From the UHGV virus genome UHGV-0263785: DNA of 42,602 nucleotides; one strand, 5' to 3'. Made by a program: the position numbers and the translations under genes. The notes below the pieces were generated by a model. That model searched no databases. It was not told where the DNA came from and was given only the letters and a program-made list of their open reading frames with translations. Each line of letters opens with the position of its first letter. Position 1 is the stretch's first letter. This document shows, in pieces, positions 8,558 to 34,363 of this stretch. Source of the stretch: a virus.

Positions 8558-9741
8558 TACGCAATCCTAATAGCTAAAAAACAGGCAGTCCCAATATCAC
8601 CGACTCCACCGGGTGAATACGCCATGGCTCGCCATGAGCCAATAAGTGGTGTGTCATAAAATGGTTTTGTGGCAATATCCGTGTTATATGAACCGGTATT
8701 ATTTATACTAGCGTAATATAAATCCCCTCCAGCCCATATGGAGCCCGGGAGTATTTGTGGTGCATGATTAATAGCGACAAGCGCATAAGTACCAACCGCG
8801 CCAACAACACCTATTTCCGGTGATGGGTCCGGTGAAAGACTTATATCTATGTTGCCATTTTCATCCGGCGACTCCCCGTTAATCGTTTTAACCGGTTTAA
8901 GATTAGCCTCATTCCAGTATTTATACGTCTGCCCGCCGCACAGTAACACCAGGCCATCATAGTGAACTCCGCGTAATCTATAAAAAACCTTCTGATTGTT
9001 TTCTCCACGGGTCGAAAAATCTAAATAATCGCCCGACACATCTGATAAACCAGCAAATGAAAACAACGTCAAATCAGTGCCCGGTTTGTTTATATTTATT
9101 TGTTTTTTAGAGGATAAAACGTCTTCAAAAATCACATCATCTTTAAAAGTATTTGGATGAGTAAATGCATTACCCTTATCTCTATATGCAACGTCCCCAT
9201 CTATACCAATATTTTTCCGCGCAGCCTGCTGAGCAGTTTCACCATTTGCGGGAATTTCAGATAAGTTTTTACTTATCTGCAAATATTTTTTGTCAGCTTC
9301 CTCGGGAGTTACGTAGTTGTCATATACTACAACATTAACCGTAGATGTGCTGGACACCGCGAGTGTGTATTTATACGTGATTGAAATCAGCGCACCGTTG
9401 CTGTCCGTAGGTTTTAAAATGTCCGGCGAGCGCGCCACAGAGTACAGCTCGCCTTTATCTGTTAATATCCCCACCTCACGGATAGTATAGCCCCCAGTGT
9501 CTGGCGGTACGTAAAGTGTAAAGATAACCTGGTTACCGCTATTTTCTGCGGATTTAATATCCCCACGATACGTCTCGTGAATTAATGCAGTTCGTGCCGG
9601 GTCCGGTGTTACGTCGTCGTTTCCGTTTGCGTCGCCAATAACGAATTTATTCAGCACCACGGGTACACCCGATGCCAGCGCAGCGGCTTCAAGTTGTGCG
9701 CCACGGTCTGTCAGTACTGCGTAAATTTTATTTTCAGCCAT
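8557..9741 (-). CDS. Tail fibre protein (P2 gpH-like N-terminal domain)
   Basis: N-terminus ..VIGDANGNDDVTPDPARTALIHETYRGDI...VPPDTGGYTIREVGILTDKGELYSVA parallels the conserved gpH N-terminal domain; follows gpI. Confidence 0.7.
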   Translation of the reverse strand: MAENKIYAVLTDRGAQLEAAALASGVPVVLNKFVIGDANGNDDVTPDPARTALIHETYRGDIKSAENSGNQVIFTLYVPPDTGGYTIREVGILTDKGELYSVARSPDILKPTDSNGALISITYKYTLAVSSTSTVNVVVYDNYVTPEEADKKYLQISKNLSEIPANGETAQQAARKNIGIDGDVAYRDKGNAFTHPNTFKDDVIFEDVLSSKKQININKPGTDLTLFSFAGLSDVSGDYLDFSTRGENNQKVFYRLRGVHYDGLVLLCGGQTYKYWNEANLKPVKTINGESPDENGNIDISLSPDPSPEIGVVGAVGTYALVAINHAPQILPGSIWAGGDLYYASINNTGSYNTDIATKPFYDTPLIGSWRAMAYSPGGVGDIGTACFLAIRIA

Positions 9742-10360
9742 TTGGCCCTATCTCCACATTTAAACTAACAATTGGTGAGCCCGATATATATAGCCCGCCG
9801 TTAATTTTTACACCGCCGTCGCCGTCTGCTGGGACGTTTACGCCTATTTTCGCGTAAGGTGTACCGGCTATAAAAAACTCACCATCGACACCCGTTTCGA
9901 AATTTATTTCTTTTAATAAGGAACGACAATTTTTTGCATCAAATATTTGTGCAATAAATGTATTCAATAGTTCTAAATCTAACCCCATGCTTTTTAGCAG
10001 ATATATTTTAATTGCGAATGTATACGGGTCGTCCCTGGGCGTGGCTTCAAACCACTCTCTCATTTTGCTCTCAAAGCCAACAGTTAATAACGCTCGTTCA
10101 ACAGCTCCACGCGTTCCGCGGTGCTTATTCTGCCACGCAGCTGCTTTAATAATTTCGCGTTTTTGCTGCTCACTCCAGTCGGGGTTCCAGTAGGTGACCG
10201 CGTACTCCCACGCCAGCCACGGCAACAGATTTGCAGGGCACAAATCGGGATTTTTAATAATTCGAATATCGCCAGGCAGATCGCCGACGTGAGATAAAAC
10301 AACCTCAAGCGCCCTCTCAGGGGTTATTGCGTTCGGAGGCAGTACGCTTTGACTTGTCAT
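9734..10360 (-). CDS. Baseplate/tail protein I (P2 gpI-like)
   Basis: 208 aa; ..LLPWLAWEYAVTYWNPDWSEQQKREIIK.. motif; between gpJ and tail fibre. Confidence 0.7.
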   Translation of the reverse strand: MTSQSVLPPNAITPERALEVVLSHVGDLPGDIRIIKNPDLCPANLLPWLAWEYAVTYWNPDWSEQQKREIIKAAAWQNKHRGTRGAVERALLTVGFESKMREWFEATPRDDPYTFAIKIYLLKSMGLDLELLNTFIAQIFDAKNCRSLLKEINFETGVDGEFFIAGTPYAKIGVNVPADGDGGVKINGGLYISGSPIVSLNVEIGPNG

Positions 10361-10362
10361 GG

Positions 10363-11238
10363 CTACCCCATTTGCACGCTGAGTTTGATTTCTGTGCAGT
10401 ACGGAGCCTGCCCGACGCCAGCGATCACATCCTCTGTTGGCGATATCAGAATCACACGTTCAGTGCCGTCACGATGTATCGCGTCGTAAATTCCTGACAG
10501 AGCTGCCGTCGCTCCGATTTTATGTTGCGTATCCACATATATCGCCAAATCGCTCTGAGCACCGTTAAGCAAAACGTTCTGGTCGGGTCCGAGCCCGGCT
10601 ACGATAACGGCCTCAACCCGGTAATTCAGGTTCGACGCAGGTTTTACAGTCACGAAATCAGTCAGCGGTCGAGTATCGTCAGGAGACAGGGCCGCATTCA
10701 CTGTATTCAGTAGTGATTGAGGCGGAGTGCCGTCGCCGGTTCGCGACAAGACATACATATCGACGTATCCAGGCTGGGTCACCGGCGGGCCGTACGCCTG
10801 AGCTGACAGAACGTCGGGATCACTCGACAGCGCGAAATAGTTATAGGCGTTCGTACTGCCGGCAGTATTCCGCGCATACCATGATAGCTGTATTCGGTGT
10901 CGATACTCGTCGTCACTCTCGTAAACAGCCTCAGTCGGGGGAATTACATCGGGATTAGCTGGCGTTATCAACAGCCGCAGGCAGTCAAAATTAGCGCCAA
11001 TCTGGTCGAGGTCACTCCCCTTTGCAAACGCGAGCAATACAGCGAGCATCCCCTGATTTACCCGAGCTGTAATAATGATTTCTCTGTATGCAACTATTTC
11101 CAGCAGTTTAACGGCCGGGTCTGACTCCAGGAGTGCGTTAAATTGTGGATATAATATCTGCAGCTCTGACAGTAGATTAGATTTAACATCTGAAAATAAC
11201 GGGGTTTTAACGAATGCTGGCGGCGGCAGCAGACTCAT
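10363..11238 (-). CDS. Baseplate assembly protein J (P2 gpJ-like)
   Basis: ..EPAVKLLEIVAYREIIITARVNQ.. matches the gpJ N-terminal pattern; the listed ORF starts at TTG, so start moved to the internal ATG (MSLLPPPAF). Confidence 0.75.
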   Translation of the reverse strand: MSLLPPPAFVKTPLFSDVKSNLLSELQILYPQFNALLESDPAVKLLEIVAYREIIITARVNQGMLAVLLAFAKGSDLDQIGANFDCLRLLITPANPDVIPPTEAVYESDDEYRHRIQLSWYARNTAGSTNAYNYFALSSDPDVLSAQAYGPPVTQPGYVDMYVLSRTGDGTPPQSLLNTVNAALSPDDTRPLTDFVTVKPASNLNYRVEAVIVAGLGPDQNVLLNGAQSDLAIYVDTQHKIGATAALSGIYDAIHRDGTERVILISPTEDVIAGVGQAPYCTEIKLSVQMG

Positions 11239-11279
11239 ATCAATAGTTTTCACTATCGAATTCTGAACTGTTGATGTTA

Positions 11280-11621
11280 TCAAAATATCAGCTCCATATT
11301 ATTAAACTCTAATCGCTGTTGTGTTTCGATATCTGTTGCGATAATTAATATTGTTATTTTCCCGATATCCACTGCTAACACATTTATTCTGTCAATTCTG
11401 ACGCGTGGTTCCCATCGTGCTATTGCGCCAGCGCTTTCCATGATTATTCGCATAGCAAGCGACGGATCTGTGGGATTATCAACAAGATCAAATAATTTGC
11501 TGCCATATTCCGGCAGCATTACACGCGTCCCCAGCGGGGTCGTTAAAATATCAACGATAGACTGACGAATGTGATCAGTCCCCGATAAAAGTTTACCGGT
11601 GTTACGGTCCATTCCAAGCAT
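11280..11621 (-). CDS. Baseplate protein W (P2 gpW / gp25-like)
   Basis: MLGMDRNTGKLLSGTDHIRQSIVDILTTPLGTRVMLPEYGS...ARWEPRV fits the gpW family; start taken at the internal Met to avoid overlap with V. Confidence 0.75.
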   Translation of the reverse strand: MLGMDRNTGKLLSGTDHIRQSIVDILTTPLGTRVMLPEYGSKLFDLVDNPTDPSLAMRIIMESAGAIARWEPRVRIDRINVLAVDIGKITILIIATDIETQQRLEFNNMELIF

Positions 11622-11623
11622 CT

Positions 11624-12541
11624 TTACGCCATTGGTTGGTTCGGTTGTTGAGTTTCCCCGTCCGGACATATATGAGTGTGTCCGTTATACGTTGTGCGGA
11701 CTTCAGTTATTGTGCCTTGTCGGTCCTGCACCTCTTGCCCTGCTAACACACTACCGCGAGTTGTGATATTACCTGTTCCACCGTTATCTCCAGTGACAGA
11801 AATATCGTTACGGAATGTCGCTAATTTATCTACTACTAATGTCTCGGTAATATGCGTTGGACCAGCTAGTGTTATACCACCCGGAGCCCACGCGCTGATT
11901 GTTTGAGCTGTCAGCGATATTCTGTTCGCAGCAGTAACACTAACAGAACTCGTTGCTATAACGTTCACTAAATCAGCATGTGCGTTAATTGTATCTGTCG
12001 CTGTGACATTAATAATATCAGCGTCTGCGTTAATTAATTTCCCACCATGGATATTAACTACATTTTCGCTATTAATAGTAACATCTGCGCGTCCAAATAT
12101 TTCTATTTCAGACTCACCGAGTATTTTTACCACGCCGTCCGGTACGCCCTGCCATGTCAGAGTGTGATTTTTTGTGTTATACGTCATCGTAGCCCCGTCA
12201 CAGTATGCAGTGACATGATCATGGGGGTCATTGCTTGGCGGAGCTTTGTCGTCAATGTGCAGCCCGAGCATAACTACACCGTTCCGCGTATCCCCACCCT
12301 CAGAAACAACAGTAACGGGATCGCCCACTGATGGTGCGCTCCAGTCGACGCGTTCTGAGGTGGCGTGAGTAAACCACTGCAGCCAGCCTGACTGGTGTTC
12401 GCCACCAAATGAGACTCGGCAGCGTGGAGGATTCATTTTAACTGCAGCTATCGTGCCGCGTTTAACTGCGTCACGCAGCCTGCGCGCGTTCTCCGCTGCA
12501 GCATATTCATCGTCCGATTGGGCCATAATAGTCGCCCTCAT
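11624..12541 (-). CDS. Baseplate spike/assembly protein V (P2 gpV-like) with extended C-terminal region
   Basis: ..RCRVSFGGEHQSGWLQWFTHATSERVDWSAPSVGDPV.. parallels the gpV N-terminal domain. Confidence 0.7.
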   Translation of the reverse strand: MRATIMAQSDDEYAAAENARRLRDAVKRGTIAAVKMNPPRCRVSFGGEHQSGWLQWFTHATSERVDWSAPSVGDPVTVVSEGGDTRNGVVMLGLHIDDKAPPSNDPHDHVTAYCDGATMTYNTKNHTLTWQGVPDGVVKILGESEIEIFGRADVTINSENVVNIHGGKLINADADIINVTATDTINAHADLVNVIATSSVSVTAANRISLTAQTISAWAPGGITLAGPTHITETLVVDKLATFRNDISVTGDNGGTGNITTRGSVLAGQEVQDRQGTITEVRTTYNGHTHICPDGETQQPNQPMA

Positions 12542-13043
12542 GTTCTGCGCCGATATCTGGTGCTATTCCGACGTATATATTTTTCAGGGTCCCCTGTGAG
12601 GGATAATCGAAAATATCTGGACCAACGCCTACAACCTGCGTGAACGACACGCACTGAACTGAATGCGAACCGACTGACTGCCCGTTTTTAATCCAGTCGC
12701 ACGGTTCCGCGTCGCTGAATTTTGCCGGTTTAGTTCCGGGACCGAACATTCGCCCATTGATCCAGCTCGTCATATAGAGCGCTGCATTCTGCGATTTCAG
12801 TCCGTACTGATCAGCTGCAAATTCACGCAGCAAATACAAATTACACGACAGCTCGACTGACTGAATTGAGCCTGGAACCGATTCGTCACTCTGTGACCAG
12901 TTGCTGATTTCCAGGAACAGAGCTGGCGTTTCAAATCCAGCCGGAATTTCCGGATAAATTCCGAATGTTTTGATGAACGGTATTTGTAAAACCGCGCCTT
13001 TAACGCGATCAAGATATTCGTCAAATGCATCCAGTCCGCTCAT
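12507..13043 (-). CDS. Phage structural protein, probable tail completion (P2 R/S position)
   Basis: Position between head-tail joining genes and baseplate V; no motif recognised. Confidence 0.35.
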   Translation of the reverse strand: MSGLDAFDEYLDRVKGAVLQIPFIKTFGIYPEIPAGFETPALFLEISNWSQSDESVPGSIQSVELSCNLYLLREFAADQYGLKSQNAALYMTSWINGRMFGPGTKPAKFSDAEPCDWIKNGQSVGSHSVQCVSFTQVVGVGPDIFDYPSQGTLKNIYVGIAPDIGAEHEGDYYGPIGR

Positions 13044-13720
13044 AATCGTTTACCTGTTTTTGGGTCTACGTGGACATTACCTTTCACGCGACCGCGCAAA
13101 TCTTTCTCAAAAAAGCCCATAAAAACAGGGCCAATGTTTTCAAAAATATAATCATCGATAGCATCCTCCAGCGCGTCGTGCACAGGTACGCGAGCCTCTT
13201 CGATTCCTCCGCGATCCAGTCGAATCCAGACACTTTTCGCACCGTAGCGTTTCGCTACGAATGAATCGGGCCAACTCATCATCGCCAGCCCTGCACTTTT
13301 GGGTGTAAAAGTTGCCCCTCTAGCGCCTTTTTTGGTTTTCAAAAACAGGCCGGTCTCAAGATCGCGAGGCTGTTTTTGCCTCCGTGGATTTTGTAATCGC
13401 CCCTTTAGCTCAGATACCCGGAAATCATTCAGACCGTACCAGAGCTTGGCGCTGCTCAGGTCTCCTGCCCCTTCTTTTGTAAAATTACGGCGCTTAATGA
13501 ACGGCTTGATTCGTTTATCTACGGCCTTATGATTTTTAGCTGCCAGTGCAGTCAAAATCATTCCTGCTGAAATTCGGTGCATATGTTTTGCAGTTCGGTT
13601 CAGCGCCCTGTTGTATACCATTAACATTTGATGTTGCGTCGCGCTGATTTCGACTCTGAGCTGCTCCAGCGCCGAAACATCGATATCGAACATCTGCGCG
13701 TTACTACGTAAATCGGCCAC
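13040..13720 (-). CDS. Phage structural protein, probable tail completion / virion morphogenesis
   Basis: Position only. Confidence 0.35.
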   Translation of the reverse strand: MADLRSNAQMFDIDVSALEQLRVEISATQHQMLMVYNRALNRTAKHMHRISAGMILTALAAKNHKAVDKRIKPFIKRRNFTKEGAGDLSSAKLWYGLNDFRVSELKGRLQNPRRQKQPRDLETGLFLKTKKGARGATFTPKSAGLAMMSWPDSFVAKRYGAKSVWIRLDRGGIEEARVPVHDALEDAIDDYIFENIGPVFMGFFEKDLRGRVKGNVHVDPKTGKRL

Positions 13721-13751
13721 GGTTCCCCCTTAAGTGGGACCGAGGTCCCAC

Positions 13752-14132
13752 TTAGTATTTTGAATACTCGCTGTTTTCGCTGGACGTGTGAGGCTCTAAA
13801 AAAATATTCGTGAGCCCTGTGCCATCAGGTTGAGGCTCTTTAACCACGTAATCGGTCCAGCCAGACCAGGTAACAGAGCCGTCAGGTTCGATGCTGCGCT
13901 GCTTTGGAACCTGGACGACGTCACGCGCAACAACGCCAGCGACGTCGTCCGAGAGCGCCGTCAGGCTCGTTACTGTACCGGTAATAAAACCAGCGTGAGG
14001 AACGTCAACGCGCGCGTAAGGCTCGTTGAAAATAGCGATAATGGGGTCGGTTTTACCGCGTAATTTAACGGGCCGTCCCCACTCACGGATCATCTCCTCG
14101 TCGCCGGCCCGGAGGTCATCGTAGTAGCTCAT
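13752..14132 (-). CDS. Putative head-tail joining protein (lambda FII position)
   Basis: Position after FI-like gene. Confidence 0.35.
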   Translation of the reverse strand: MSYYDDLRAGDEEMIREWGRPVKLRGKTDPIIAIFNEPYARVDVPHAGFITGTVTSLTALSDDVAGVVARDVVQVPKQRSIEPDGSVTWSGWTDYVVKEPQPDGTGLTNIFLEPHTSSENSEYSKY

Positions 14133-14548
14133 AGAGCGTAAACGTGATCAGCTGCGATAAGGTCTGCGACCTCCGGTGAATCAACAACAATTTCACGGCC
14201 TGCGGCAACAATCTCGCGAACGCGACGCCCGTTCACGTAGTGATAAACGTCCAGCGTGTTACGCAACTTGACGCGGCGCGTAGCCGGTGCGAGCTCCTGC
14301 TCTTGTGACTGTGAAACGATAGCGCTCGCGATTGATTGAGCGAGTTCATTATCGGTCCCGGACGCAGTATTCACTGTAATCTCGATGCCTCCCGCGTCAC
14401 CGGATTGCTCGTTCAGAATATCGAGCTCTGACTCAGCGCCGGCAACGATTGATTCCAGTTCCGCAATAGTCCCGCTGCGCGGTAATTCGCGACCGAGCTG
14501 AGCGCTCAGATCGTCAATACGCGCCAGCAATTCTGTTTTTGTGCTCAT
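14129..14548 (-). CDS. DNA packaging protein (lambda FI-like)
   Basis: 139 aa acidic protein directly after the major capsid gene; N-terminus ..ELLARIDDLSAQLGREL resembles lambda FI. Confidence 0.45.
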   Translation of the reverse strand: MSTKTELLARIDDLSAQLGRELPRSGTIAELESIVAGAESELDILNEQSGDAGGIEITVNTASGTDNELAQSIASAIVSQSQEQELAPATRRVKLRNTLDVYHYVNGRRVREIVAAGREIVVDSPEVADLIAADHVYAL

Positions 14549-14582
14549 GTTGATTCCTTAACAAAAAAGAGCCTTTCGACTC

Positions 14583-15617
14583 TTACGCGATTTTTACGAC
14601 AACGAACGCGTCGGCGTCCGTGAGGACCATTGCTGGCGCGGATTGCGTCATTGTTTGCGTCACTGCCGGATCACCGGTAGTGGTCCAGACTTTTGGATAG
14701 CGCGTCGCTTCGGAAATACCCTCTTTCAGCGCGTCTTCGTCCTGAATTGCGCCATAAGTGCGGAGCCCGCGGTTTTTTGTGTTGCCAAGGATCATCGTGT
14801 TATCCGGCATATAACGCGTTTCAGTGTCTGTTACCGGGTCGAGGTATTGCCCTTTGTAGACAAACAGCGCAGTGTCGCCGTAGTAGCCTTTAAAGCTGAC
14901 AACGTCGCCCAGGTTTTTCAGCGCGACCTCGAGCTGGCTGTTTGAGCCACGGCGCGTATCCAGTGCCGTCCAGAATTTTTTAAAACGCTTCAACTGCTTC
15001 CAGGCTTTACCATCCATGATGATCACGTTAACCGCACCGGAGGCGAGGTCCGCGTAGGATTCAATATCGTCGCTCGGGTCATACGTTTCCGCGTCCTGAG
15101 TCGACCAGGCTGTCGAACCGGACTGAGTGACGTTATTCGTCGCGCTGCGGCTCATGTCGATCTCATAGGTCTCGATATTGCTGCCGGAAACAGTGTATTT
15201 ACCGTACAGAACAGCCTGTACCGCCTGGAACTCTTCGAGCTGGCTGATGCTCAGTTCCTCATCAAGCAGGTTCTGCATGATGATTTTTGCACGACGTTCG
15301 ACCGGCGTTTCCGGCTGGCCAATCTGCTCACCGGCTGCGCGCTTGATGCTCATATTCGGATTGATCGTGTGCTTGGGTTTCGTGTAACCCGGTTTGAAAT
15401 GGTTCGTTGAATAGCCGCGAGTGCGGTCAACTTTGCCGGTGATCATCGGCGCGCAGTACACGGCCATGTTCACTTTTCCCGGGATTTTATCCAGAAAAAC
15501 CTCTTCGCTCGTAAACGTGTAGGTCTCACGGAAAAACAGCTTTAAAAACAACGGATTGAACTTAAATACCTGCTGTGTCGCGGTAATCAGTTCTGACGTA
15601 GTAAACGAATCGCTCAT
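14583..15617 (-). CDS. Major capsid protein (lambda gpE family)
   Basis: 344 aa; KFNPLFLKLFFRETYTF..KIPGKVNMAVY..GYTKPKH..TYDPSDDIE..TRRGSNSQLE..LPDNTMILGNT..RGLRTYGAIQD..RYPKVWTTTGDPA are near-identical blocks to lambda E as I recall it. Confidence 0.9.
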   Translation of the reverse strand: MSDSFTTSELITATQQVFKFNPLFLKLFFRETYTFTSEEVFLDKIPGKVNMAVYCAPMITGKVDRTRGYSTNHFKPGYTKPKHTINPNMSIKRAAGEQIGQPETPVERRAKIIMQNLLDEELSISQLEEFQAVQAVLYGKYTVSGSNIETYEIDMSRSATNNVTQSGSTAWSTQDAETYDPSDDIESYADLASGAVNVIIMDGKAWKQLKRFKKFWTALDTRRGSNSQLEVALKNLGDVVSFKGYYGDTALFVYKGQYLDPVTDTETRYMPDNTMILGNTKNRGLRTYGAIQDEDALKEGISEATRYPKVWTTTGDPAVTQTMTQSAPAMVLTDADAFVVVKIA

Positions 15618-15675
15618 TTATATATCCTGTTATAAAAAAACCGCCCGGAGGCGGCTTGTTTTGAGTTTTTTGCTA

Positions 15676-16005
15676 TCAGCCGACGCTGATCGGCGTACCC
15701 GCAAATGCTGATTTGCGTTTAGCTACGTCGGTAACCGTACCCCAGTTAATCGCCGTGTAACGGAACGAGCCTGATTTATAGTACGAGCAGTCTGCAGAAC
15801 TGGAGCCAGTATTAACTGCGGTGGCAGTGAGGCCAATAGCTTTACCGACTGAGCCGTCCCAAACCTTAAACGTCCCGACAGTAGCGTCGAGCATAATCGG
15901 TGTCAGCCGGGGTACGTTGATCCCGCCCTGAAAATGACCGACGGTCGTGACAACAAGGTCAGGCCCAAGAATAAAATCGTCCGGGCTATACGTTTCTGTA
16001 GTCAT
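15676..16005 (-). CDS. Head decoration protein (lambda gpD family)
   Basis: 109 aa; ..PIMLDATVGTFKVWDG...YYKSGSFRY....SAFAGTPIS.. parallels lambda D. Confidence 0.8.
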   Translation of the reverse strand: MTTETYSPDDFILGPDLVVTTVGHFQGGINVPRLTPIMLDATVGTFKVWDGSVGKAIGLTATAVNTGSSSADCSYYKSGSFRYTAINWGTVTDVAKRKSAFAGTPISVG

Positions 16006-17312
16006 TATTCATCCCCTAAAATTGAACGCCCTGCAGCAACCAGCATCGAGACGTTTGCGGTTGTTCCTGTTGCCGTAGTACTGCCAGCATCCTGAATAGT
16101 CGCTGGTGATTCAGTGCTCATTAGTGTATCGAGCGCCGTTTCTGTCCGCGCCTGCGCCGTTTTAGGTGCTGCAGCGAGGACTACCTGCGCCTGCCCGACC
16201 GTCATCCCGGGGACGCCAGCGAGCGCTTTTGCCTGCGCCTCGCGCCCAACAGCTTCGGGACAATTGATGATGGCCATCACACGCGCCAGTTCGCTTGATG
16301 CGGCGTCCGCGCGAATCTGCTCCGTGTTAAACTCAACCTGCGCGACAGTAGTCGTGGTCGCGGTTTGTTCTGTGGTCGTGGTCTCCGCCGTGGTTTCTGT
16401 ACCAGACATAAAGCGCTCCATTTTTGGTTTCAGTGCGTCGGCCATCACTGCGATAGCGTCCGCGTAATTAACGAGTTGATCAGCGAGACCAGATTTAATC
16501 GCGTCCGCGCCGATAAATACTGCAGCTTCCGTGGCCAGCACCCTGGATTTTTTCAGCCCGGTATAATCCGAGACTTTTTGCGCGAACTGCTCGCGCGTGC
16601 TGTTAATACTCAGCTGGAATTCGTCGCGAACGTCGCCTGGCAGCTGGGAATACGGGTTCCCGTCAACTTTGTGCGCGCCGGCGTAAATCAGCGTCACGTC
16701 GACGCCAGCAATCTCCAGCGCTTTTTCGACGCAGCGGTGAGCCATCAGGACACCGATTGAACCAACTGTGCCTGTCTGCGTTATCAGCCGGCGCGAACAC
16801 GCTGACGCCAGCAAATAGGCAGCGCTGCAGGCCGTATCGCTGGCCAGCGCCCACACAGGTTTTTGCTCTCGCGCCCGGGCGATTAAATCAGCAGTATCAA
16901 ACGCGCCGGCGACTTCACCGCCAGGGGAGTCAATATCAAGCAGGACCCCTCTTACATCGGGATCAGAAATCGCCTGCTGCAGGCGTTTTGCGATTCCGTT
17001 GTAACCGCTCATCCCGCTAACTGGGTTGATATAACCCAATTTATGAACCAGCGTCCCGGTAACCGGCAGAACGGCTATACCACGCTCCACGCGATACGAT
17101 TTCTGGCGTGTTCGCTCGCTGCTGTCCCACCCCATCGCGAGCGCGTTCATTTCGTCGCTGTTCATTACCTCTCCAGACGCTGTATCAATCAGTCGCCCGG
17201 TACCGAACCGGTCGCTCAGCGCCGAAAAAAATACCCGCGCGTAGGTGGGCTCCAGCAAAAGCGGTTGATTGAACGCCCTGGCGGCGAGGTGCGGAAAATT
17301 GTTCCACGGCAT
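16005..17312 (-). CDS. Head protease / minor capsid protein C (S49 family, lambda gpC-like)
   Basis: 435 aa; ..GYNGIAKRLQQAISDPDVRGVLLDIDSPGGEVAGAF..PVWALASDTACSAAYLLASACSRRL..SHKVDGNPYS.. parallels lambda C. Confidence 0.85.
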   Translation of the reverse strand: MPWNNFPHLAARAFNQPLLLEPTYARVFFSALSDRFGTGRLIDTASGEVMNSDEMNALAMGWDSSERTRQKSYRVERGIAVLPVTGTLVHKLGYINPVSGMSGYNGIAKRLQQAISDPDVRGVLLDIDSPGGEVAGAFDTADLIARAREQKPVWALASDTACSAAYLLASACSRRLITQTGTVGSIGVLMAHRCVEKALEIAGVDVTLIYAGAHKVDGNPYSQLPGDVRDEFQLSINSTREQFAQKVSDYTGLKKSRVLATEAAVFIGADAIKSGLADQLVNYADAIAVMADALKPKMERFMSGTETTAETTTTEQTATTTTVAQVEFNTEQIRADAASSELARVMAIINCPEAVGREAQAKALAGVPGMTVGQAQVVLAAAPKTAQARTETALDTLMSTESPATIQDAGSTTATGTTANVSMLVAAGRSILGDE

Positions 17313-18876
17313 CAGTTACCTCCCCAGCCGTTATCGTTGGTATTTGAGGGGTGAGATACAGACCATGACGGTTCGCTCAGCCCCATTTCACGCCGGCGCT
17401 GAATTTCGTATTCCTGCTGCTCCATAACCTCCTCGTAATCCTGTCCCTGCAGCGCCAGTTCGTTCTGATACGTGCTGAGGCCAGTTGTGATGCGCATGGC
17501 GCTCTCCTGAACCTCTTTCAGCCCATCAATCGCCATGCGACCAGCGCCGATCCAGAGCGCGTTCGTCCAGGAGTTCCGCGCCTCATAAAACGACCGGACA
17601 GCTGAGCGTGGCAGGGTGATAATTCCGCGTGCCAGCGCCTCTTCAAACCAGCAGCAGAACATCAGCGACGCCTGTCGCGCGGCGATAAAACGTCGACGCC
17701 CCATGAAAAATCGCCAGCTGACGTTAGCACTGGCCCGGGCGCTGGAGTAACTGACCTGGCTGTAGTCCCGGCTAAGTTCTTCGTATGACGCGCCAACGCC
17801 AGCTGCAACGTAACGCAGGAGTGATTTTTCCAGTGAACTAAAACCAGCATCAGCATTCTGAGCGGTCTGTAAACTGAGTTTGTCGCCGGGATGCAGGTGG
17901 GGAACTTTCACACCACCGAGCTTGATATTTGCGCCGTTGTAGTACGTCACGTAACTCTGAATAAACGAATTCAGCGGGTTCGAGTCGATATCAGTACCCG
18001 CGCCGGCGATATATTCAAACGCCTGCTGGCTGTCGAGCTCTGATTCGATTGTCGCGGCATACATCGCCATGATGATCCGCGAGGGCGTGGCTACTCACGC
18101 TTTCAACGGTGAAACCTGCGTACAACCAGTCTGGGAGAGTAGTGCCGGCAGCGTTTTTCGGACGCGATTCAAAATGGTCTCACCGAAACGGATTCGAAAT
18201 CCGGGTTACGCAGCTGACACTCAATTTCGCCGCGCCGGTGTTGATATCGATAAAAACGGGGCCGCGGTCGGGTACTGGATAGCCGAGGATACTTACCCTC
18301 TCGGCGGAGTCGGTAAATGCCGGCGTATCCCAGCACAGCTCAGCAGCGGCAGACACGCATTCATCCACATATTCGAGCCGCTCGAGGACGGACAGACCCG
18401 CGGGGACAATATTTTTTACAGCGTCATGGAGCGCCTGAAAATGCTCGACACACTGCAGCAAACACAACTGCAGAGCGCCATTGTGAAGGCGATGTATGCC
18501 GCGACAATGTGCAGTGAGGGTCCTCGGCGTATTCAGTCCACGCTACCTCGACGTCACGCGCCAGCGCCCTGGCGTCCTCGCGAGATATGCCGAGGTAACG
18601 CCAGTTAGGGCGATAACTCAACTTAAACAGATTGCCGACGATATGATCCTGGTGCAGCTGCACGGCGTTCGACGCGACGCCGTTATTGCGAACGAGATCG
18701 TCTGCTCGCGCGTTACCGCGATAAAAATTCGGCAACAGTGCTGCGTCGGCGCTCTGCTGTGGTGCGTTCCAGTCAATCAGCTGGCCACCGAAACCGGGAC
18801 CGCCGCCGTTATACCCCGCGTAACGGCGTAGTGGCGTTTTACCGTCAGGCCCGAGCAGCTGCTGCGGAGCAGTCAT
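17312..18876 (-). pseudogene. Portal protein gene (lambda gpB family) interrupted by an internal inverted block
   Basis: N-terminal part on the minus strand (18876 to about 18509: ..LLGPDGKT..YAGYNGGGPGFGGQL..RGNARADDLVRNNG..LHQDHIVG..), middle part on the PLUS strand (18069-18487: MMIREGVATHAF...FIHIFEPLEDGQTRGDNIFYSVMERLKMLDTLQQTQLQSAIVK) and C-terminal part on the minus strand (18067-17312: AMYAATIESELD...GRMAIDGLKEVQES..). Confidence 0.8.
18048..18508. repeat. Perfect 21-bp inverted repeat (18048-18068 attgtcgcggcatacatcgcc; reverse complement at 18488-18508) bracketing the inverted portal block
   Basis: Read directly; neighbouring bases do not extend the repeat. Confidence 0.85.
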
Positions 18877-19106
18877 AATCGAACTCCCACGGGCCGACGG
18901 CGTCCCGTACTCAGACCGAGCTGTGATTTCAGCTCGATAATGTACGTTCGGAGCTGCTCAATACTCGCCTGCGAGTATTGATAGCTCCGGTTATTTCCTG
19001 CTGAATCGCCGTGAGACAGCGACACGGTCGATTTACCCGTTAATAATTTGTGCAGAGCGATTTCCGCTTCCAGCAGTCGTTCTGTTAAAACCTCGCGCGA
19101 CGTCAT
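18873..19106 (-). CDS. Head-tail joining protein (lambda gpW-like)
   Basis: 77 aa between terminase large subunit and portal; ..LHKLLTGK....YIIELKSQ.. resembles lambda W. Confidence 0.7.
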   Translation of the reverse strand: MTSREVLTERLLEAEIALHKLLTGKSTVSLSHGDSAGNNRSYQYSQASIEQLRTYIIELKSQLGLSTGRRRPVGVRL

Positions 19107-21067
19107 TAGCTCCCTCCGAGCATTCTGGCCATCTCCTCGAGAGACAGTTTGTTTTGTGATTTTTTCCGTTGCTCAGCGAGCGTCTCGAGATTGAGCTGGA
19201 AACGAATTTTACTGATACGCAGCGCTGCCAGTCCGTACACCCAGCAGTCGAGCGCCTCATTTCGCCGGCCCTGGTTGTCCCAACGATAAACGACGCGACC
19301 GTTAATGAGTTTCGGGATCAGAACCTCGGAGACGAGCTGTTTTGCCTCTGTCGTGCTGAATATTTCGTCGTCGTTGGGAAAATGAATCGCACCTGGTGTC
19401 GCCGATTTGGAGTCGGGTTCCAGCTGCAGGCGCATTGCGAGCAGGTCTTTCGCTGTATCTGTCCCAATCAACGACAAATACACTTTATTCGCGTTACGGG
19501 TACGAGGCATATTTACGACCGGCTGGCCGTATGAGCTCGCGCCCTTGATTGGAATGACCCACAGCGGACCGAGTTTCAGCGAGCGGTTATAAACGACCTG
19601 CGCATCTATACCACCGGTATCCCACGCCCAGCGACTGACGCCGATTGTGGTCCCGTCGCTGCGCCGGTATTGTTTGCGAATCACTCCGTCGACGCGCTGC
19701 AGCGTGTCCTCCTCGTCGTAGCGACCGAGGACGATTGTTTTATCAATCAGCCAGCACTCCTCCTCGGCTCCCCAGCCCCACACATAACACTCGTAGCGCC
19801 CGGACGTCTGAGAGTCGATGCCGCCGGTTATATAAACAACACCGTCAGGAACCTGGCTGGCGTATTTTTCCCGGCGATTAACCAGAATATCGTGCTCCAG
19901 CTGCTCGCTGGCCACGTCGCTCCAGAGTTCGCCGAGCGTCGTGTTATGAAACGTCTTTTCCTTGAGCGGGTCGCCTTTCGCTTTCAGCCACTCGCTGACA
20001 ATCTCGCCCCATCCATCGAGGTTTAGTGAATACAGGGCGTTTATCACGATCGCAGCGTGTTTCGGCGCGCGAACGACGCCACCGTCATGATCAAAAAAAT
20101 GAATGCCGTCTCGGGTCCAGGTGCAGTCCTCGGCTATCCAGCGCCCCCCGAACTCCATTTTTTCGAGATCGCGATAGTAAAAATGTTCCGGGCAGTGGCA
20201 GCACTGGTAATACGCGGACGACGATTTCGCCTCATTGGTCTGCAGGCTGTTATCCCATTTGAGGCCGTATTCGATACCGTCGAAACCAAATACCAGGACC
20301 TGCTCCTCGCCACAATGCGGACATGTCAGGTAAAAACGAAACGTCAGATCGGCAGCGTCTTCGAGCATTTCGATATGACTTTTGCCGGTAACGGTCGGCG
20401 TCGAACCAAAAATCGCCTTCGGGTACGCTGCCCCTTTAATTCGAACGAGCGCCAGTTCGATGGGCGAGCCCTCGCCTTTGCCTTTTTTGGCAACTTCCAG
20501 CGGCCAGCCGTCAACTTCGTCACCCTCGACAACCTGTTTCGTTAGTCGCCGGAAATTTCCTGGTGCACTCGCGCCGCGAAAATCAAGAATCGCGCCGCTC
20601 ATTTCTTTACGCTGGAGATTGTTACGCTCGTTGCTTTTATCCCAGTCGGGGAAAATTTTCTGAATCACTGGCATTTCGGCGATAGCGGGGTCAACCTCGT
20701 CGGCGACAAATCCATCCGATTCGTCATCGATAGGCTGATAGACCACGGCACTACGTTTTTTGTGCTCAGCGAAATAGAGCAGCGCCGCGACGAGTATTTT
20801 TGTATAACCGAGACGAGCTGATTTGCGAACAGACACGATTTTTATCGCGTCGTTCGTCATCATATTGAGCATCACTACCTGGACCGGCTGAGTCGTCCAG
20901 TGCCCAGCGATGTGGCTGGAGCCCTCAGGGAGATAAAAATATTTATCAGCCCACTCAACACCCGTCATCGGTATCGTCACGCGCAAGGGATTCAACCCTG
21001 TCGAGATCGCGTTCGATATCGCTGACATCGTAATCGCTGAAGTCGATTCGTATGTCTGACAACTCAT
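19106..21067 (-). CDS. Terminase large subunit (lambda gpA family)
   Basis: 653 aa; blocks VEWADKYFYLP, CPHCGEEQ, NTTLGE, GIDSQ, RYECYVWGWG, WLIDKTI, WDTGGID, IPIKGAS, RNEALDCWVYGLAALRIS match lambda A as I recall it. Confidence 0.9.
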   Translation of the reverse strand: MSCQTYESTSAITMSAISNAISTGLNPLRVTIPMTGVEWADKYFYLPEGSSHIAGHWTTQPVQVVMLNMMTNDAIKIVSVRKSARLGYTKILVAALLYFAEHKKRSAVVYQPIDDESDGFVADEVDPAIAEMPVIQKIFPDWDKSNERNNLQRKEMSGAILDFRGASAPGNFRRLTKQVVEGDEVDGWPLEVAKKGKGEGSPIELALVRIKGAAYPKAIFGSTPTVTGKSHIEMLEDAADLTFRFYLTCPHCGEEQVLVFGFDGIEYGLKWDNSLQTNEAKSSSAYYQCCHCPEHFYYRDLEKMEFGGRWIAEDCTWTRDGIHFFDHDGGVVRAPKHAAIVINALYSLNLDGWGEIVSEWLKAKGDPLKEKTFHNTTLGELWSDVASEQLEHDILVNRREKYASQVPDGVVYITGGIDSQTSGRYECYVWGWGAEEECWLIDKTIVLGRYDEEDTLQRVDGVIRKQYRRSDGTTIGVSRWAWDTGGIDAQVVYNRSLKLGPLWVIPIKGASSYGQPVVNMPRTRNANKVYLSLIGTDTAKDLLAMRLQLEPDSKSATPGAIHFPNDDEIFSTTEAKQLVSEVLIPKLINGRVVYRWDNQGRRNEALDCWVYGLAALRISKIRFQLNLETLAEQRKKSQNKLSLEEMARMLGGS

Positions 21068-27624: not shown

Positions 27625-28230
27625 ATGCCATCGGATGACGATTTTAACAGCCGTTTCAAACAGGAAGTAGCACGCAGACTGAAGGATTCCCTCAACCTAC
27701 ACCGTCAGTTAGCAGAAGAGGTTGAGCCGGAGGACGATGAAACTCCGGTTCAGTCTCCTGACGAAGCTTCACCTCAGCCAAAGGTTTCGCACGCCCCCAA
27801 AAAAACGGCTGTCCGTATTCGCGGAATAGCCAGAAAAAGAGCTGCCGAAGCTCGCAAAATGGCTGTAGCTGCGTCTAGCAAAAGAATTCCAACTGCTACA
27901 CCCTCTCAACAAGTCACCCGTACTGAGAGTAAAATCTTGACCGAGTTCACATCTGTGAAACAGGTGAATTCACTTGATACCGAGCATGAGCGCAAACAAC
28001 TCAACAACAAAGATTTTGAAGCAGAAATCGCTCTAAAAAAACGATACGGGAAATGGTTCCTGATTATCCTTGCTTTCCAACTTCTGATAATGAATGGTGT
28101 ATTTATTGCCGACGGCGCAGGTAAGCTGGAATTTGAGGATTTAACACTACAGTTGTACATGGGCGGTACTTTGACAGAGGTATTCGGCCTCGTGCTGGTC
28201 GTGACAAAATACCTTTTTAAACGCAAGTAA
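27625..28230 (+). CDS. Membrane protein with charged, low-complexity N-terminal region and two C-terminal TM helices; partner of the ImmA-like peptidase
   Basis: 201 aa; starts 9 bp after the peptidase stop; C-terminus ..WFLIILAFQLLIMNGVFIADGAG..LTEVFGLVLVVTKYLFKRK. Confidence 0.55.
   Translation: MPSDDDFNSRFKQEVARRLKDSLNLHRQLAEEVEPEDDETPVQSPDEASPQPKVSHAPKKTAVRIRGIARKRAAEARKMAVAASSKRIPTATPSQQVTRTESKILTEFTSVKQVNSLDTEHERKQLNNKDFEAEIALKKRYGKWFLIILAFQLLIMNGVFIADGAGKLEFEDLTLQLYMGGTLTEVFGLVLVVTKYLFKRK
28152..28230 (+). repeat. Direct repeat copy 1 (the last ~26 codons of the membrane-protein gene)
   Basis: About 79 bp, roughly 90% identical to 31575-31653; homology ends exactly at the stop codon. 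Confidence 0.8.
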
Positions 28231-28266: not shown

Positions 28267-28692
28267 AAAGGGCCTTGATAAATTAGCAGTGCGTTGAAAA
28301 CAGATAGTTATTCCCATCAGTTCCAACGTAATACACATCAAAAAAATCACCATTCTTTTGCTCTAACGTCAACACCTACCCTTAAAAAAATAATTCTCCA
28401 AGAATGAGAAAGTTATTGTGTGTATTAGATAAGATATGAGCTGACACATCTATGGCGTGGAGCCAAATTTAATATGACAGTCCGCTCTGTGCCATAAGCG
28501 GACTGTCAATAAACAGATTCACTTGTAAATCTTGAAGCTATACATATTTACTTTCAATGATAAATAAAAGAACTATCCAAAAATCACTGAGAGCATATTT
28601 TAACTAACCCTCCGCTACTATTAACATAAATTTCACCCAACCATAATTAAATTGATACATATAGCAACTTACCTTGATACGAATCATCTGGG

Positions 28693-29391
28693 TTATATTT
28701 TTCCATATTTTTTTCCGTCAAATCGAATCATGCCAGGATCAAGAAAATTAATTAAATCGATTAACGCGTGCTGTATTCTGATTAGCCTTTCTTTATAAAT
28801 TCCGATATCTCTTGTCATATTTATCACTTCATTGTTTAAATCTAAAAAAAATGGCTCATTGATAAAGCAATTTTCCTTTGTGAAACTGCCGTAACCTATG
28901 CAATCAAATCCAGTATCTGTTGATATCAGCATCTTTTCTGCAATAGCTCTCTGCTCTCCTATGAAAAACATAAAATACTGACCAAAGACGTCTGTTTGGA
29001 TTAATGAGTTAATATTGTTCTGTAATCTAATAAACTCCCTCATTTTTTTATTTTTTTCTAGGCTAAGGTATTGAATGTCTATGCGGGCAGCTTCTGTCCA
29101 TGCAAAAAACTGGGAAAAAAGAAAAACAGTATTGTTGATAACATAATCTTGTTGGCGCTTATTCCCATTATGATAAAACTCTTCAATGAACCCCAATTCT
29201 AATATATTATAAATACGGCTTTGTAAGTCTGAAGCTGAGCGAATTAACGGTTCAATATAGTACTGATGTTTTCTCCTTACATCCAGTGATTCATTGAGCT
29301 TGTTTATTCTATTCTGATTATAAGTAGATATAGCAATAGAGATTATAGCTATTGCACCACTAATAAAGCTTGAAATTAATGCCGTACCCAT
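28693..29391 (-). CDS. Membrane-anchored hypothetical protein (N-terminal TM helix), strongly AT-rich gene
   Basis: 232 aa, ATG start; N-terminus MGTALISSFISGAIAIISIAISTY; base composition clearly lower in GC than the phage backbone. Confidence 0.5.
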   Translation of the reverse strand: MGTALISSFISGAIAIISIAISTYNQNRINKLNESLDVRRKHQYYIEPLIRSASDLQSRIYNILELGFIEEFYHNGNKRQQDYVINNTVFLFSQFFAWTEAARIDIQYLSLEKNKKMREFIRLQNNINSLIQTDVFGQYFMFFIGEQRAIAEKMLISTDTGFDCIGYGSFTKENCFINEPFFLDLNNEVINMTRDIGIYKERLIRIQHALIDLINFLDPGMIRFDGKKYGKI

Positions 29392-29954
29392 CTAAAAGTC
29401 CTTTGATTCTTGCTTGGTTAACAAAATGACATAATTTTATTTAATGCCATAACAACTTAACAATATATCATAATATGATTATTATGGTGTAGCTTGTCGC
29501 ATCTACGCTCCATTACAAACAGATGTAAGATATAACCTATATGTTTTAGCCAGCAAATTCGAAAGCATTCAAAGTAGTCTCATCGAACTCTCGAAACCCT
29601 ATGTCTTCGGGTATAAAATATTTAAATCCATTTGCATAATATCGACTCATGTTTATTATATTCTCCCCATTCACCATTAAGATTTGACATTATTTTCAAC
29701 AATCGGTTATTGCAAGATTGAAATATATTTTTACTTGACACAATATTCCATGTAGCCCAGCGATTCGACTTACCCCCAACTATACGGACAATCTAAATTA
29801 AATCGATGATTTTTTGATACATTCTCCTCTCTCCATTACTTTATGTTTTTGTTCCCCAAAAATACCTTGCTCTCTAAAAAATAATTGTTCTTTAAGTTCA
29901 AAATCGAGATCTACATGAGCGTTAGATACAAAGCTAATATGTTGAAATGTCTTT

Positions 29955-29963
29955 CCCCCCCCC
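29955..29963. repeat. Homopolymeric C9 (G9 on the minus strand) tract
   Basis: Counted directly: ctttccccccccc|ataacgg. Confidence 0.9.
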
Positions 29964-30579
29964 ATAACGGCATTGTTATCTAAACTATGTTACACAAATA
30001 TAATATTACCCTTTCAACGTAATCCAAGAATAAGATTAATGCCATTATATATATCATAAATATGATATTTTGTATATTTTTATCATTTAGCCTTGATTGT
30101 ACTAGGTGTACTCTCAACGAAGTAGGGAAAGTCTGTTCCTCGCTCACAGCTGCCCTTCAGTAAGCGAAAAAATGCCTACTCGGTGCCATATACAGCCATT
30201 GTTATTAACAGCAGGGAATAATTCAAAACTGAAATTAAATATCTACCTTTTACAGTAGAAATAGTTCCTCCAGGACACTATCCATTGCCGGGCACAATCA
30301 CTCGGGGTATAACGATATAAAATATGTTCATGATAGTGCAGGTTCGTATATTAAGTTCAGCAGCGAAAACATGCCTTACAGGTTTCCGGTTTTGGGAGCG
30401 TCGTTACAGGATCCTGCGCATACCGTTCCCATCTGTTGAATTAAAGGTTTCACAGCCTTTGCCGATATCACCTTTTACCTTACCTGTGATGCGTTCAGTG
30501 CTCAGCGTTGTTTACTGTAGCTCTCGGGACTGATTACAGACCGCGTCTTAAAAACCAATCCTTACTCTAAAGGGAATTC

Positions 30580-31503: not shown

Positions 31504-31574
31504 CTGAAGTCTCCTTCAAGCTGGCGCCAGGTGTTAACCTGGTGCCAGCTTAGTCATCAAGTGCATATGTAACT

Positions 31575-31653
31575 GTTTTATATGGGCGGTACTTTGACAG
31601 AGGTATTCGGTCTCGTGCTGGTCGTGGTCAAATACCTTTTTAAGCGCAAATAG
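31575..31653 (+). pseudogene. Direct repeat copy 2: orphan 3' remnant of a homologous membrane-protein gene (encodes ..YMGGTLTEVFGLVLVVVKYLFKRK*)
   Basis: In-frame through to a TAG stop, differences mostly synonymous, no upstream coding sequence. Confidence 0.7.
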
Positions 31654-34325: not shown

Positions 34326-34363
34326 TGGTCTTTCCTCGGTTATTTCACGCTGGTCAGGCGTGG

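What the first reader, a model, noticed from the sequence alone, without database searches (positions are those of the whole stretch)
17312..18876. Portal gene carries an internal inverted block flanked by a perfect 21-bp inverted repeat
The lambda gpB-like portal is readable in three pieces: N-terminal part on the minus strand (ends ..AEDPHCT, then runs into nonsense), middle part on the plus strand (18069-18487, MMIREGVATHAF...LQSAIVK), and C-terminal part on the minus strand (AMYAATIESELD...). The block is bracketed by attgtcgcggcatacatcgcc at 18048-18068 and its exact reverse complement at 18488-18508; both copies encode the same peptide AMYAAT. Flipping the block back joins ..SAIVK directly to AMYAATIESELD, as in intact portals. 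By my frame arithmetic, though, no single clean inversion puts all three pieces in frame; the N-terminal junction closes only if the right-hand repeat copy is treated as an extra 20-nt inverted duplication. So this is an inversion plus duplication that inactivates the portal, a recombinase-flipped segment, or a misassembly.
Basis: partly seen in the sequence, partly recalled or inferred. Interest (0 to 1): 0.75.

Follow-up and report, generated by a model that had tools for sequence, protein, structure and literature searches.

The report
Scrambled, dead portal gene in prophage
In an otherwise intact E. coli phage genome, 440 bases of the head-portal gene were re-copied from the opposite strand, which kills the gene and leaves a 21-base inverted repeat as a scar; this is an accident or an artefact, not a genetic switch.

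Summary
A perfect 21-nt inverted repeat (18048-18068 / 18488-18508) brackets a 419-nt piece of a lambda-family portal gene that lies on the wrong strand.

The intact allele is present in 442 complete E. coli genomes. Against it, the window equals ancestor[..4069] + revcomp(ancestor[4049..4488]) + ancestor[4520..], base for base (L001 coordinates). That is three changes at once:
- a 419-nt inversion;
- a 21-nt inverted duplication;

The net change is -10 nt. Flipping the block back gives a stop after about residue 130, so no orientation restores the portal.

The 21-mer is single-copy in every intact relative. The only recombinase in the genome is the phage integrase. This is therefore not a programmed invertible segment.

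The anatomy matches a single switch-and-return template switch (four-point model, type 3-1-2-4). A pre-existing 9-nt inverted repeat abuts the first switch point, but neither junction has in-register microhomology.

I found the arrangement nowhere else in the databases I searched, and it is the window's only private difference from its relatives. Without reads I cannot separate a true recent knockout (about 0.5) from an amplification or assembly chimera (about 0.35). Interest is low.

The parts
18509..18876 (-). Portal N-terminal part: CDS nt 1-368 of the intact 1575-nt gene (aa 1-122 plus 2 nt of codon 123). In the window it reads on into 27 nonsense codons (ORF 18424-18876).
   Evidence: Identical to L001 4520-4887. 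PF05136 profile 2-101.
18488..18508 (.). Right arm: a new, inverted second copy of the 21-mer. It occupies the place of the 31 deleted nt. Junction J2 lies at 18508|18509.
   Evidence: It is the reverse complement of L001 4049-4069. No such copy exists in intact relatives.
18069..18487 (+). Inverted middle of the portal gene (CDS nt 400-818, aa 134-273), now on the opposite strand. Junction J1 lies at 18068|18069.
   Evidence: It is the reverse complement of L001 4070-4488 at 100% identity. PF05136 profile 102-235.
18048..18068 (-). Left arm: the native copy of the 21-mer (CDS nt 819-839, encodes AMYAATI).
   Evidence: Equals L001 4049-4069, in its ancestral place and orientation.
17312..18047 (-). 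Portal C-terminal part (CDS nt 840-1575, including the stop codon). J1 fortuitously creates an ATG at 18070-18068, which gives a 252-aa ORF.
   Evidence: Identical to L001 3313-4048. PF05136 profile 237-354. ORF listed.
16005..17312 (-). Downstream head protease/scaffold gene (S49 peptidase). Its start overlaps the portal stop codon. Context only.
18873..21067 (-). Upstream gpW-like gene (18873-19106) and large terminase (19106-21067), both intact. Context only.
198..1244 (+). Tyrosine integrase, the only recombinase found in the genome.
   Evidence: PF00589 and PF22022. RefSeq annotation of the SA186 prophage.
1306..1430 (.). attP core (125 nt, includes the 3' part of tRNA-Leu). It occurs once here but at both ends of the integrated prophage, so the window is the excised circular form.

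Best explanation
This is a one-off, unprogrammed lesion made by a single switch-and-return strand switch of a DNA polymerase.

Inferred sequence of events, in the coordinates of the intact allele (L001):
1. Synthesis ran to position 4069.
2. It jumped to the opposite strand at 4488 and copied back to 4049 (440 nt).
3. It returned to the original strand at 4520.

Shown result: 419 nt are inverted, the 21 nt copied twice form a perfect inverted repeat, and the 31 nt skipped on return are lost. The inverted repeat is a scar of the event, not a recombination site.

The consequence is a portal gene split into three fragments. No orientation of the block repairs it. From established lambda gpB biology, the phage should be unable to build procapsids or package DNA. 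Integrase, att site, replication, lysis, terminase and tail genes are untouched.

I favour a real, very recent mutation in this particular phage/prophage genome over an in-vitro origin, but only modestly.
For: - Exact three-fragment reconstruction: window 17000-19200 == L001[3001-4069] + rc(L001[4049-4488]) + L001[4520-5211].
- A pre-existing 9-nt inverted repeat, TTCACAATG (L001 4070-4078 / 4486-4494), abuts switch point 1 and overlaps point 2. Random placements give a repeat this long that close only 0.16% of the time. This points to strand pairing rather than a random mis-join.
- The 21-mer is single-copy in all intact relatives.
- Apart from this lesion the window has no difference of its own from its relatives. 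It is 100% identical to H105 over the 23.3 kb compared, apart from lacking that strain's IS1. It is near-identical to SA186, with 0 mismatches over 24.1 kb and 3 mismatches plus one 1-nt gap over 16.8 kb.
- A flip between the arms gives a stop after about aa 130.
- The intact portal is conserved in 442 complete E. coli genomes.
Against: - In-register microhomology is 0 nt at both junctions. The nearby 9-nt and 6-nt homologies are offset by 6 nt and 1 nt, so a clean microhomology-primed switch does not give the observed sequence.
- The copied tract (440 nt) is far longer than the short events for which the four-point model was documented.
- The arrangement is a singleton. It is in 0 of 5426 complete E. 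coli genomes. Neither junction occurs in the viral, genome or metagenome collections. None of the three fragment proteins is on record. There is therefore no inheritance evidence that it ever existed in a cell.
- The window is a closed, excised circle. If that DNA came from virions, a portal-less phage should not have been packaged.
Confidence: 0.5

Rival explanations
1. The rearrangement is an artefact. It would be a chimeric molecule made in vitro, for example by phi29/MDA strand displacement with two consecutive inverted switches, or an assembly, consensus or editing error. The real genome would then carry the intact portal.
For: - MDA chimeras are mostly 'inverted sequences with intervening deletions' between segments less than 10 kb apart (PMC1855051). 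That is the form of both junctions here (419 and 471 nt apart).
- The arrangement is a singleton across all collections searched.
- The window is an excised circular phage genome. If it was sequenced from particles, it should carry a working portal.
- There are zero private SNPs elsewhere.
- The small 6-nt and 1-nt offsets from the neighbouring microhomologies could be consensus errors.
Against: - Two coordinated junctions would have to dominate the read consensus in a genome that otherwise assembled perfectly and closed.
- 93.5% of MDA inverted chimeras under 10 kb show complementarity at the junction. Here there is none in register.
- De Bruijn graph ambiguity cannot produce it, because both junction k-mers are novel and the ancestral inverted repeat is only 9 nt.
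Confidence: 0.35
2. The inversion is real but made by breakage and rejoining rather than by copying. It would need a staggered double-strand break at the left breakpoint (a 21-nt 5' overhang filled in on both ends), a resected break at the right breakpoint (31 nt lost), and re-ligation of the middle fragment in reverse.
For: The absence of in-register microhomology at both junctions fits blunt rejoining. An inverted duplication at one breakpoint with a deletion at the other is what filled-in staggered breaks give (recalled from work on Drosophila inversion breakpoints, not tested here).
Against: - E. coli has no Ku/LigD end-joining, and its alternative end-joining is inefficient (established knowledge).
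- The model needs four ends to be handled correctly.
- It does not explain why a 9-nt inverted repeat sits exactly at J1 (P about 0.002).
Confidence: 0.08
3. It is a programmed or recombinase-driven invertible segment, that is, a phase switch of portal expression acting through the 21-bp inverted repeats.
For: A perfect inverted repeat brackets a segment inside a phage gene. Phages such as Mu, P1 and e14 are known to carry invertible segments (established knowledge).
Against: - There is no invertase. The only recombinase is the integrase.
- The repeat does not exist in any intact relative.
- Neither orientation yields a full portal.
- 442 genomes carry one orientation and none carries the other.
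- The 21-mer has no internal dyad symmetry of the kind Hin-family sites have (read directly from the sequence).
Confidence: 0.02

Closest known systems
Template-switch mutations: four-point model event type 3-1-2-4 (mirror 1-3-4-2) of Loytynoja & Goldman 2017 (PMC5453318), which generalises the bacterial quasipalindrome template-switch mechanism (Ripley 1982; Dutra & Lovett 2006, as cited in that paper)
   Same: The mutant is exactly F1 + revcomp(F2) + F3 of the ancestor. The point order 3<1<2<4 produces a new perfect inverted repeat around an inverted spacer, with loss of the sequence between points 2 and 4. A short pre-existing inverted repeat lies at the switch site.
   Different: The copied tract is 440 nt rather than roughly 10-50 nt. 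There is no in-register microhomology. The junctions are displaced 6 nt and 1 nt from the nearest homologies. Only a single occurrence is known.
MDA (phi29) chimeras (Lasken & Stockwell 2007, PMC1855051)
   Same: Junctions are inverted, with an intervening deletion, between sites a few hundred nt apart on the same molecule.
   Different: Two successive switches would have to appear in an assembled consensus. The usual 2-21 nt of complementarity at the junction is absent. It is not known whether MDA was used.
Site-specific invertible segments of phages and prophages (Mu G/Gin, P1 C/Cin, e14 P/Pin, Salmonella Hin) and tyrosine-recombinase invertons (fimS, Bacteroides)
   Same: A segment of a few hundred bp is bracketed by short inverted repeats in a temperate phage genome.
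   Different: There is no cognate invertase. The repeats are absent from relatives. The repeat is ordinary portal coding sequence duplicated by the event. Both orientations are non-functional.
Prophage decay or domestication by structural-gene knockouts, e.g. the IS1 insertion in the baseplate gene V of this same prophage in strain H105
   Same: A single lesion in one virion-assembly gene of an otherwise complete prophage.
   Different: The lesion here is a copy-error rearrangement, not an IS insertion, and it is private to this sequence.

Membership tests
Lambda-family phage portal protein (Pfam PF05136, Phage_portal_2) | Sequence match to the family profile above the gathering score | tested here: met
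   The three fragments score 82.5, 87.9 and 96.1 bits against a cut-off of 32.9, and cover profile 2-101, 102-235 and 237-354.
Lambda-family phage portal protein (Pfam PF05136, Phage_portal_2) | One continuous reading frame encoding the whole protein (a functional gene) | tested here: not met
   The gene is in three ORF fragments on two strands. 31 nt are missing relative to the 1575-nt intact allele. It is a pseudogene as written.
Site-specific DNA inversion switch (serine invertase Hin/Gin/Cin/Pin type or tyrosine-recombinase inverton) | A cognate invertase encoded next to or within the element | tested here: not met
   RefSeq annotation of the identical prophage lists only a tyrosine integrase. 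A Pfam scan of 10 of the ORFs of 150 aa or more, mostly ones RefSeq leaves unnamed, found only PF00589 in the integrase and no resolvase/invertase domain.
Site-specific DNA inversion switch (serine invertase Hin/Gin/Cin/Pin type or tyrosine-recombinase inverton) | Inverted-repeat sites present in relatives, and both orientations seen among genomes | tested here: not met
   The 21-mer is single-copy in L001-L004. 442 of 5426 complete E. coli genomes hold most of the region in the intact arrangement, and none matches across the junctions.
Site-specific DNA inversion switch (serine invertase Hin/Gin/Cin/Pin type or tyrosine-recombinase inverton) | At least one orientation, usually both, gives a functional product | tested here: not met
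   As written there are three fragments. After an in-silico flip there is a stop after about aa 130 and a separate 391-aa ORF.
Site-specific DNA inversion switch (serine invertase Hin/Gin/Cin/Pin type or tyrosine-recombinase inverton) | Both orientations coexist in one population | not testable with these tools
   This needs raw reads or PCR.
Template-switch mutation (four-point model, type 3-1-2-4) | The mutant is explained exactly by three ancestral fragments, the middle one reverse-complemented | tested here: met
   String equality of the reconstruction with window 17000-19200.
Template-switch mutation (four-point model, type 3-1-2-4) | Switch-point order 3<1<2<4, giving a new inverted repeat plus an inverted spacer | tested here: met
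   Points are 4049 < 4069 < 4488 < 4520 in L001. The definition is in PMC5453318.
Template-switch mutation (four-point model, type 3-1-2-4) | Priming microhomology or a pre-existing quasipalindrome at the switch points (classical bacterial mechanism) | tested here: inconclusive
   There are 0 nt in register at both junctions. A 9-nt inverted repeat lies at J1 but is offset by 6 nt (P about 0.0016). A 6-nt match lies at J2, offset by 1 nt (P about 0.09).
Template-switch mutation (four-point model, type 3-1-2-4) | The event arose in vivo during replication or repair | not testable with these tools
   There are no reads, no second isolate and no inheritance data (searches are all negative).
MDA/phi29 amplification chimera | An inverted join with an intervening deletion between sites less than 10 kb apart | tested here: met
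   J1 joins 4069(+) to 4488(-). J2 joins 4049(-) to 4520(+). The criterion is from PMC1855051.
MDA/phi29 amplification chimera | 2-21 nt of complementarity at the junction (93.5% of proximal inverted chimeras) | tested here: not met
   There are 0 nt in register at both junctions.
MDA/phi29 amplification chimera | The library was made by MDA, and the junction is supported by only a minority or clonal set of reads | not testable with these tools
   The provenance of the window is unknown.

The most novel reading that the evidence does not exclude
The lesion is a genuine in-vivo template-switch event of unusually large size. It would be a 440-nt switch-and-return of type 3-1-2-4, nucleated by a 9-nt inverted repeat, caught at zero divergence in a clinical-lineage E. 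coli prophage.

That would show two things. First, the 'short template switch' process operates at the several-hundred-nt scale in bacteria. Second, it can disable virion assembly in one step while leaving excision and replication intact.

A still more speculative extension (about 0.03) is that the newborn 21-bp inverted repeat now lets the segment flip at low frequency, which would be the birth of an invertible element.
Probability: 0.45. Interest if true: 0.35.

Novelty: new member of a known kind. Interest (0 to 1): 0.2.

Why it matters
If real, it is a clean, fully resolved example of how a single replication error can turn a complete temperate phage into a defective one that can still excise. 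The ancestral sequence is known base for base, so it gives a natural data point for the size range and junction rules of template-switch mutagenesis in bacteria.

If it is an artefact, it is a useful warning. An inverted block flanked by a perfect inverted repeat looks like an inverton to repeat-based finders. Comparison with the intact allele shows that the repeat was created by the event and is not a recombination site.

Either way it does not reveal a new biological system.

Tried and rejected
1. Clean inversion by recombination between the ancestral 9-nt inverted repeats (TTCACAATG). The predicted product keeps TTCACA at the left junction and 25 nt of native sequence at the right. The window differs by -6 nt, and 25 nt are replaced by 21 nt. 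Rejected as sufficient (reading).

2. A clean microhomology-primed switch using the 9-nt and 6-nt homologies. This predicts 32-nt arms and a net change of -3 nt. The window lacks a further 6 nt and 1 nt, so it does not fit without extra events.

3. De Bruijn graph ambiguity (21 is a common k-mer size). Rejected, because both junction k-mers are novel sequence and the ancestor has no inverted repeat of k-mer length.

4. Hin/Gin-type or integrase-mediated inversion. There is no invertase. The 21-mer has no dyad symmetry, and the repeat is absent from relatives.

5. Looking for a second occurrence. The searches were megablast against 5426 E. coli genomes, phages and plasmids. I also ran exact junction scans of viral, genome and metagenome contigs, and exact-protein look-ups of the three fragment ORFs. 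All were negative. The genome-contig collection holds only one genome per species, so it is a weak test at strain level.

6. The identical intact allele was already in hand, so they could not change the verdict.
Full report
**What is there**

The window carries a perfect 21-nt inverted repeat. ATTGTCGCGGCATACATCGCC lies at 18048-18068 and its reverse complement at 18488-18508, with 419 nt between them. These are the only two copies in the 42.6-kb window even with 3 mismatches allowed. No shuffle of the window produced two copies.

The surrounding 17312-18876 is a lambda-family portal gene (Pfam PF05136) in three pieces, and the profile coordinates of the pieces follow one another:

| Piece | Window coordinates | Strand | PF05136 profile |
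|---|---|---|---|
| N part | 18424-18876 | - | 2-101 |
| Middle | 18069-18487 | + | 102-235 |
| C part | 17312-18070 | - | 237-354 |

.

**Exact anatomy against the intact allele**

Megablast finds most of the region in 442 of 5426 complete E. coli genomes, at 99.9% identity in the best matches. It also finds it in four partial phage records. In the hits listed, the match breaks into two pieces around the block, so the block lies the other way round in those genomes. The three relatives I inspected, SA186, H105 and phage vB_EcoM-720R5, each annotate one 1575-nt portal CDS there, WP_000126513.1 in the two genomes.

Base-by-base comparison with strain SA186 (locus L001) gives this mapping:
- window 17000-18068 = L001 3001-4069
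- window 18069-18508 = reverse complement of L001 4049-4488
- window 18509-19200 = L001 4520-5211

A reconstruction from these three fragments is string-identical to the window.

Relative to the ancestor there are three changes:
- a 419-nt inversion (CDS nt 400-818, aa 134-273);
- an inverted duplication of 21 nt (CDS nt 819-839);
- a 31-nt deletion (CDS nt 369-399, which is the third base of T123 plus IDIERKRTFT, aa 124-133).

The net change is -10 nt. Their '20-nt extra' arithmetic closes the frame only by accepting the loss of ten codons.

**Consequences**

As written, the portal is split into a 150-aa N fragment that ends in nonsense, an antisense-oriented middle, and a 252-aa C fragment. 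The ATG of the C fragment is created by the junction itself.

Flipping the block between the arms in silico gives a stop after about aa 130 and a separate 391-aa ORF that starts at M134. No orientation restores the gene. The portal is essential for procapsid assembly and DNA packaging (established lambda gpB biology). If the sequence is true, this genome cannot make virions on its own.

**Context**

The window is a complete temperate phage genome in its excised, circularly closed form.
- Window 1306-42602 is colinear with a prophage that lies between yecA and tRNA-Leu in ST131-type strains.
- Window 1-1430 continues directly from the window's end in SA186.
- The 125-nt att core (1306-1430) occurs at both prophage ends in SA186 but only once in the window.

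The heads are lambda-like and the tails P2-like.

Apart from the portal lesion, the window is extremely close to its relatives.
- It is 100% identical to H105 over the 23.3 kb compared, and it lacks the IS1 that H105 carries in baseplate gene V.
- Against SA186 it has 0 mismatches over 24.1 kb, and 3 mismatches plus one 1-nt gap over 16.8 kb.

The rearrangement is thus the only private feature of this sequence.

**Not a programmed switch**

- The 21-mer is single-copy in every intact relative examined. The inverted repeat was created by the event and is ordinary coding sequence (AMYAATI).
- No invertase is encoded. RefSeq annotation of the same prophage and my Pfam scan of 10 of the large ORFs, mostly unnamed ones, find only the tyrosine integrase at 198-1244.
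- None of 5426 genomes shows the other orientation.
- Neither orientation is functional.

**Mechanism**

The pattern is F1 to point 1 (4069), reverse-complement copy from point 2 (4488) to point 3 (4049), then resumption at point 4 (4520). This is exactly a single switch-and-return event of the four-point template-switch model. [quoted passage not shown]

A pre-existing 9-nt inverted repeat supports a pairing-nucleated strand switch. TTCACAATG lies at L001 4070-4078, immediately after point 1, and its complement lies at 4486-4494, overlapping point 2. With random placement of the points in this prophage, a repeat this long that close occurs in 0.16% of trials.

Against a textbook event:
- In-register microhomology is 0 nt at both junctions.
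- The 9-nt homology is displaced by 6 nt.
- The 6-nt homology at J2 (P about 0.09) is displaced by 1 nt.
- The copied tract is much longer than the documented short events.

A breakage and rejoining model (staggered break filled in, plus resection) also reproduces the anatomy. It fits E. coli biology poorly and ignores the 9-nt repeat.

**Real or artefact?**

This cannot be settled here. The arrangement is a singleton:
- it is absent from all complete E. coli genomes;
- it is absent from the phage and plasmid collections;
- exact junction scans of the viral, genome and metagenome contigs are negative;
- none of the three fragment proteins is in the exact-protein index.

MDA is known to create inverted joins with intervening deletions between nearby sites (PMC1855051). 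A portal-less genome recovered as a closed circle would be odd if the DNA came from particles.

On the other side, an artefact needs two coordinated junctions to dominate the consensus of an otherwise perfect assembly. 93.5% of proximal inverted MDA chimeras show junction complementarity, which is absent here. K-mer graph ambiguity cannot create novel junctions.

| Explanation | Weight |
|---|---|
| Real recent template-switch mutation | 0.5 |
| Amplification, assembly or editing artefact | 0.35 |
| Real break-and-rejoin inversion | 0.08 |
| Programmed inversion | 0.02 |

**Verdict**

This is a scar of a strand-switch copying error, or a chimera, in a phage portal gene. It is a known kind of lesion, of modest interest mainly as a fully resolved and unusually long example.

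Noticed in passing
window 1-1430 and 42602 (the wrap-around); att core 1306-1430: The window is a whole temperate phage genome in excised, circularised form. Its end joins its start in the SA186 chromosome, and the 125-nt att core (3' part of tRNA-Leu) is present once here but at both ends of the integrated prophage.
   Followed up: yes
window about 11930 (baseplate gene V, ORF 11624-12541): The closest chromosomal relatives, H105 among them, carry an IS1 insertion (about 777 nt including the target duplication) in baseplate gene V. The window and SA186 lack it. The prophage has therefore been disabled independently in other lineages.
   Followed up: partly
window 2508-3281 (-): The gpD/VgrG-like tail gene is 257 aa here and in H105, but 347 aa in SA186. 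A 1-nt gap in the window-versus-SA186 alignment of 1306-18068 may be what truncates it. It gives only a weak PF05954 match (22 bits, below the cut-off).
   Followed up: no
window 28437-30150; 78-nt repeats at 28149-28226 and 31572-31649: This region is 86.7% identical to the 'Z-region ORF1' cassette of phage P2-EC58 (AJ512683), a cargo gene annotated there as flanked by roughly 100-nt inverted repeats. In the window, a 3.4-kb stretch holding this ORF (28693-29391) and an LprI-family gene (30580-31503) is bracketed by 78-nt direct repeats of 90% identity. It looks like a mobile cargo cassette shared between unrelated phage types.
   Followed up: partly
window 34347-34364 and 38772-38789; also 38800-38809 and 38826-38835: This is the only other perfect inverted repeat in the window: 18 nt, ACGCTGGTCAGGCGTGGT, with the copies 4.4 kb apart. 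It is native, because the sequence is identical in SA186. The right copy belongs to three tandemly spaced CCTGACCAGC motifs upstream of the early-left genes. The left copy sits at the stop codon of the DnaB-like helicase gene. These may be binding sites for a regulator or origin protein. Unexplained.
   Followed up: no
window 18066-18072: Junction J1 fortuitously creates overlapping divergent start codons: ATG on the minus strand (18070-18068) for the 252-aa C fragment, and ATGATG on the plus strand (18069-18074) for the 179-aa inverted-middle ORF. There is no evidence that either is expressed.
   Followed up: no
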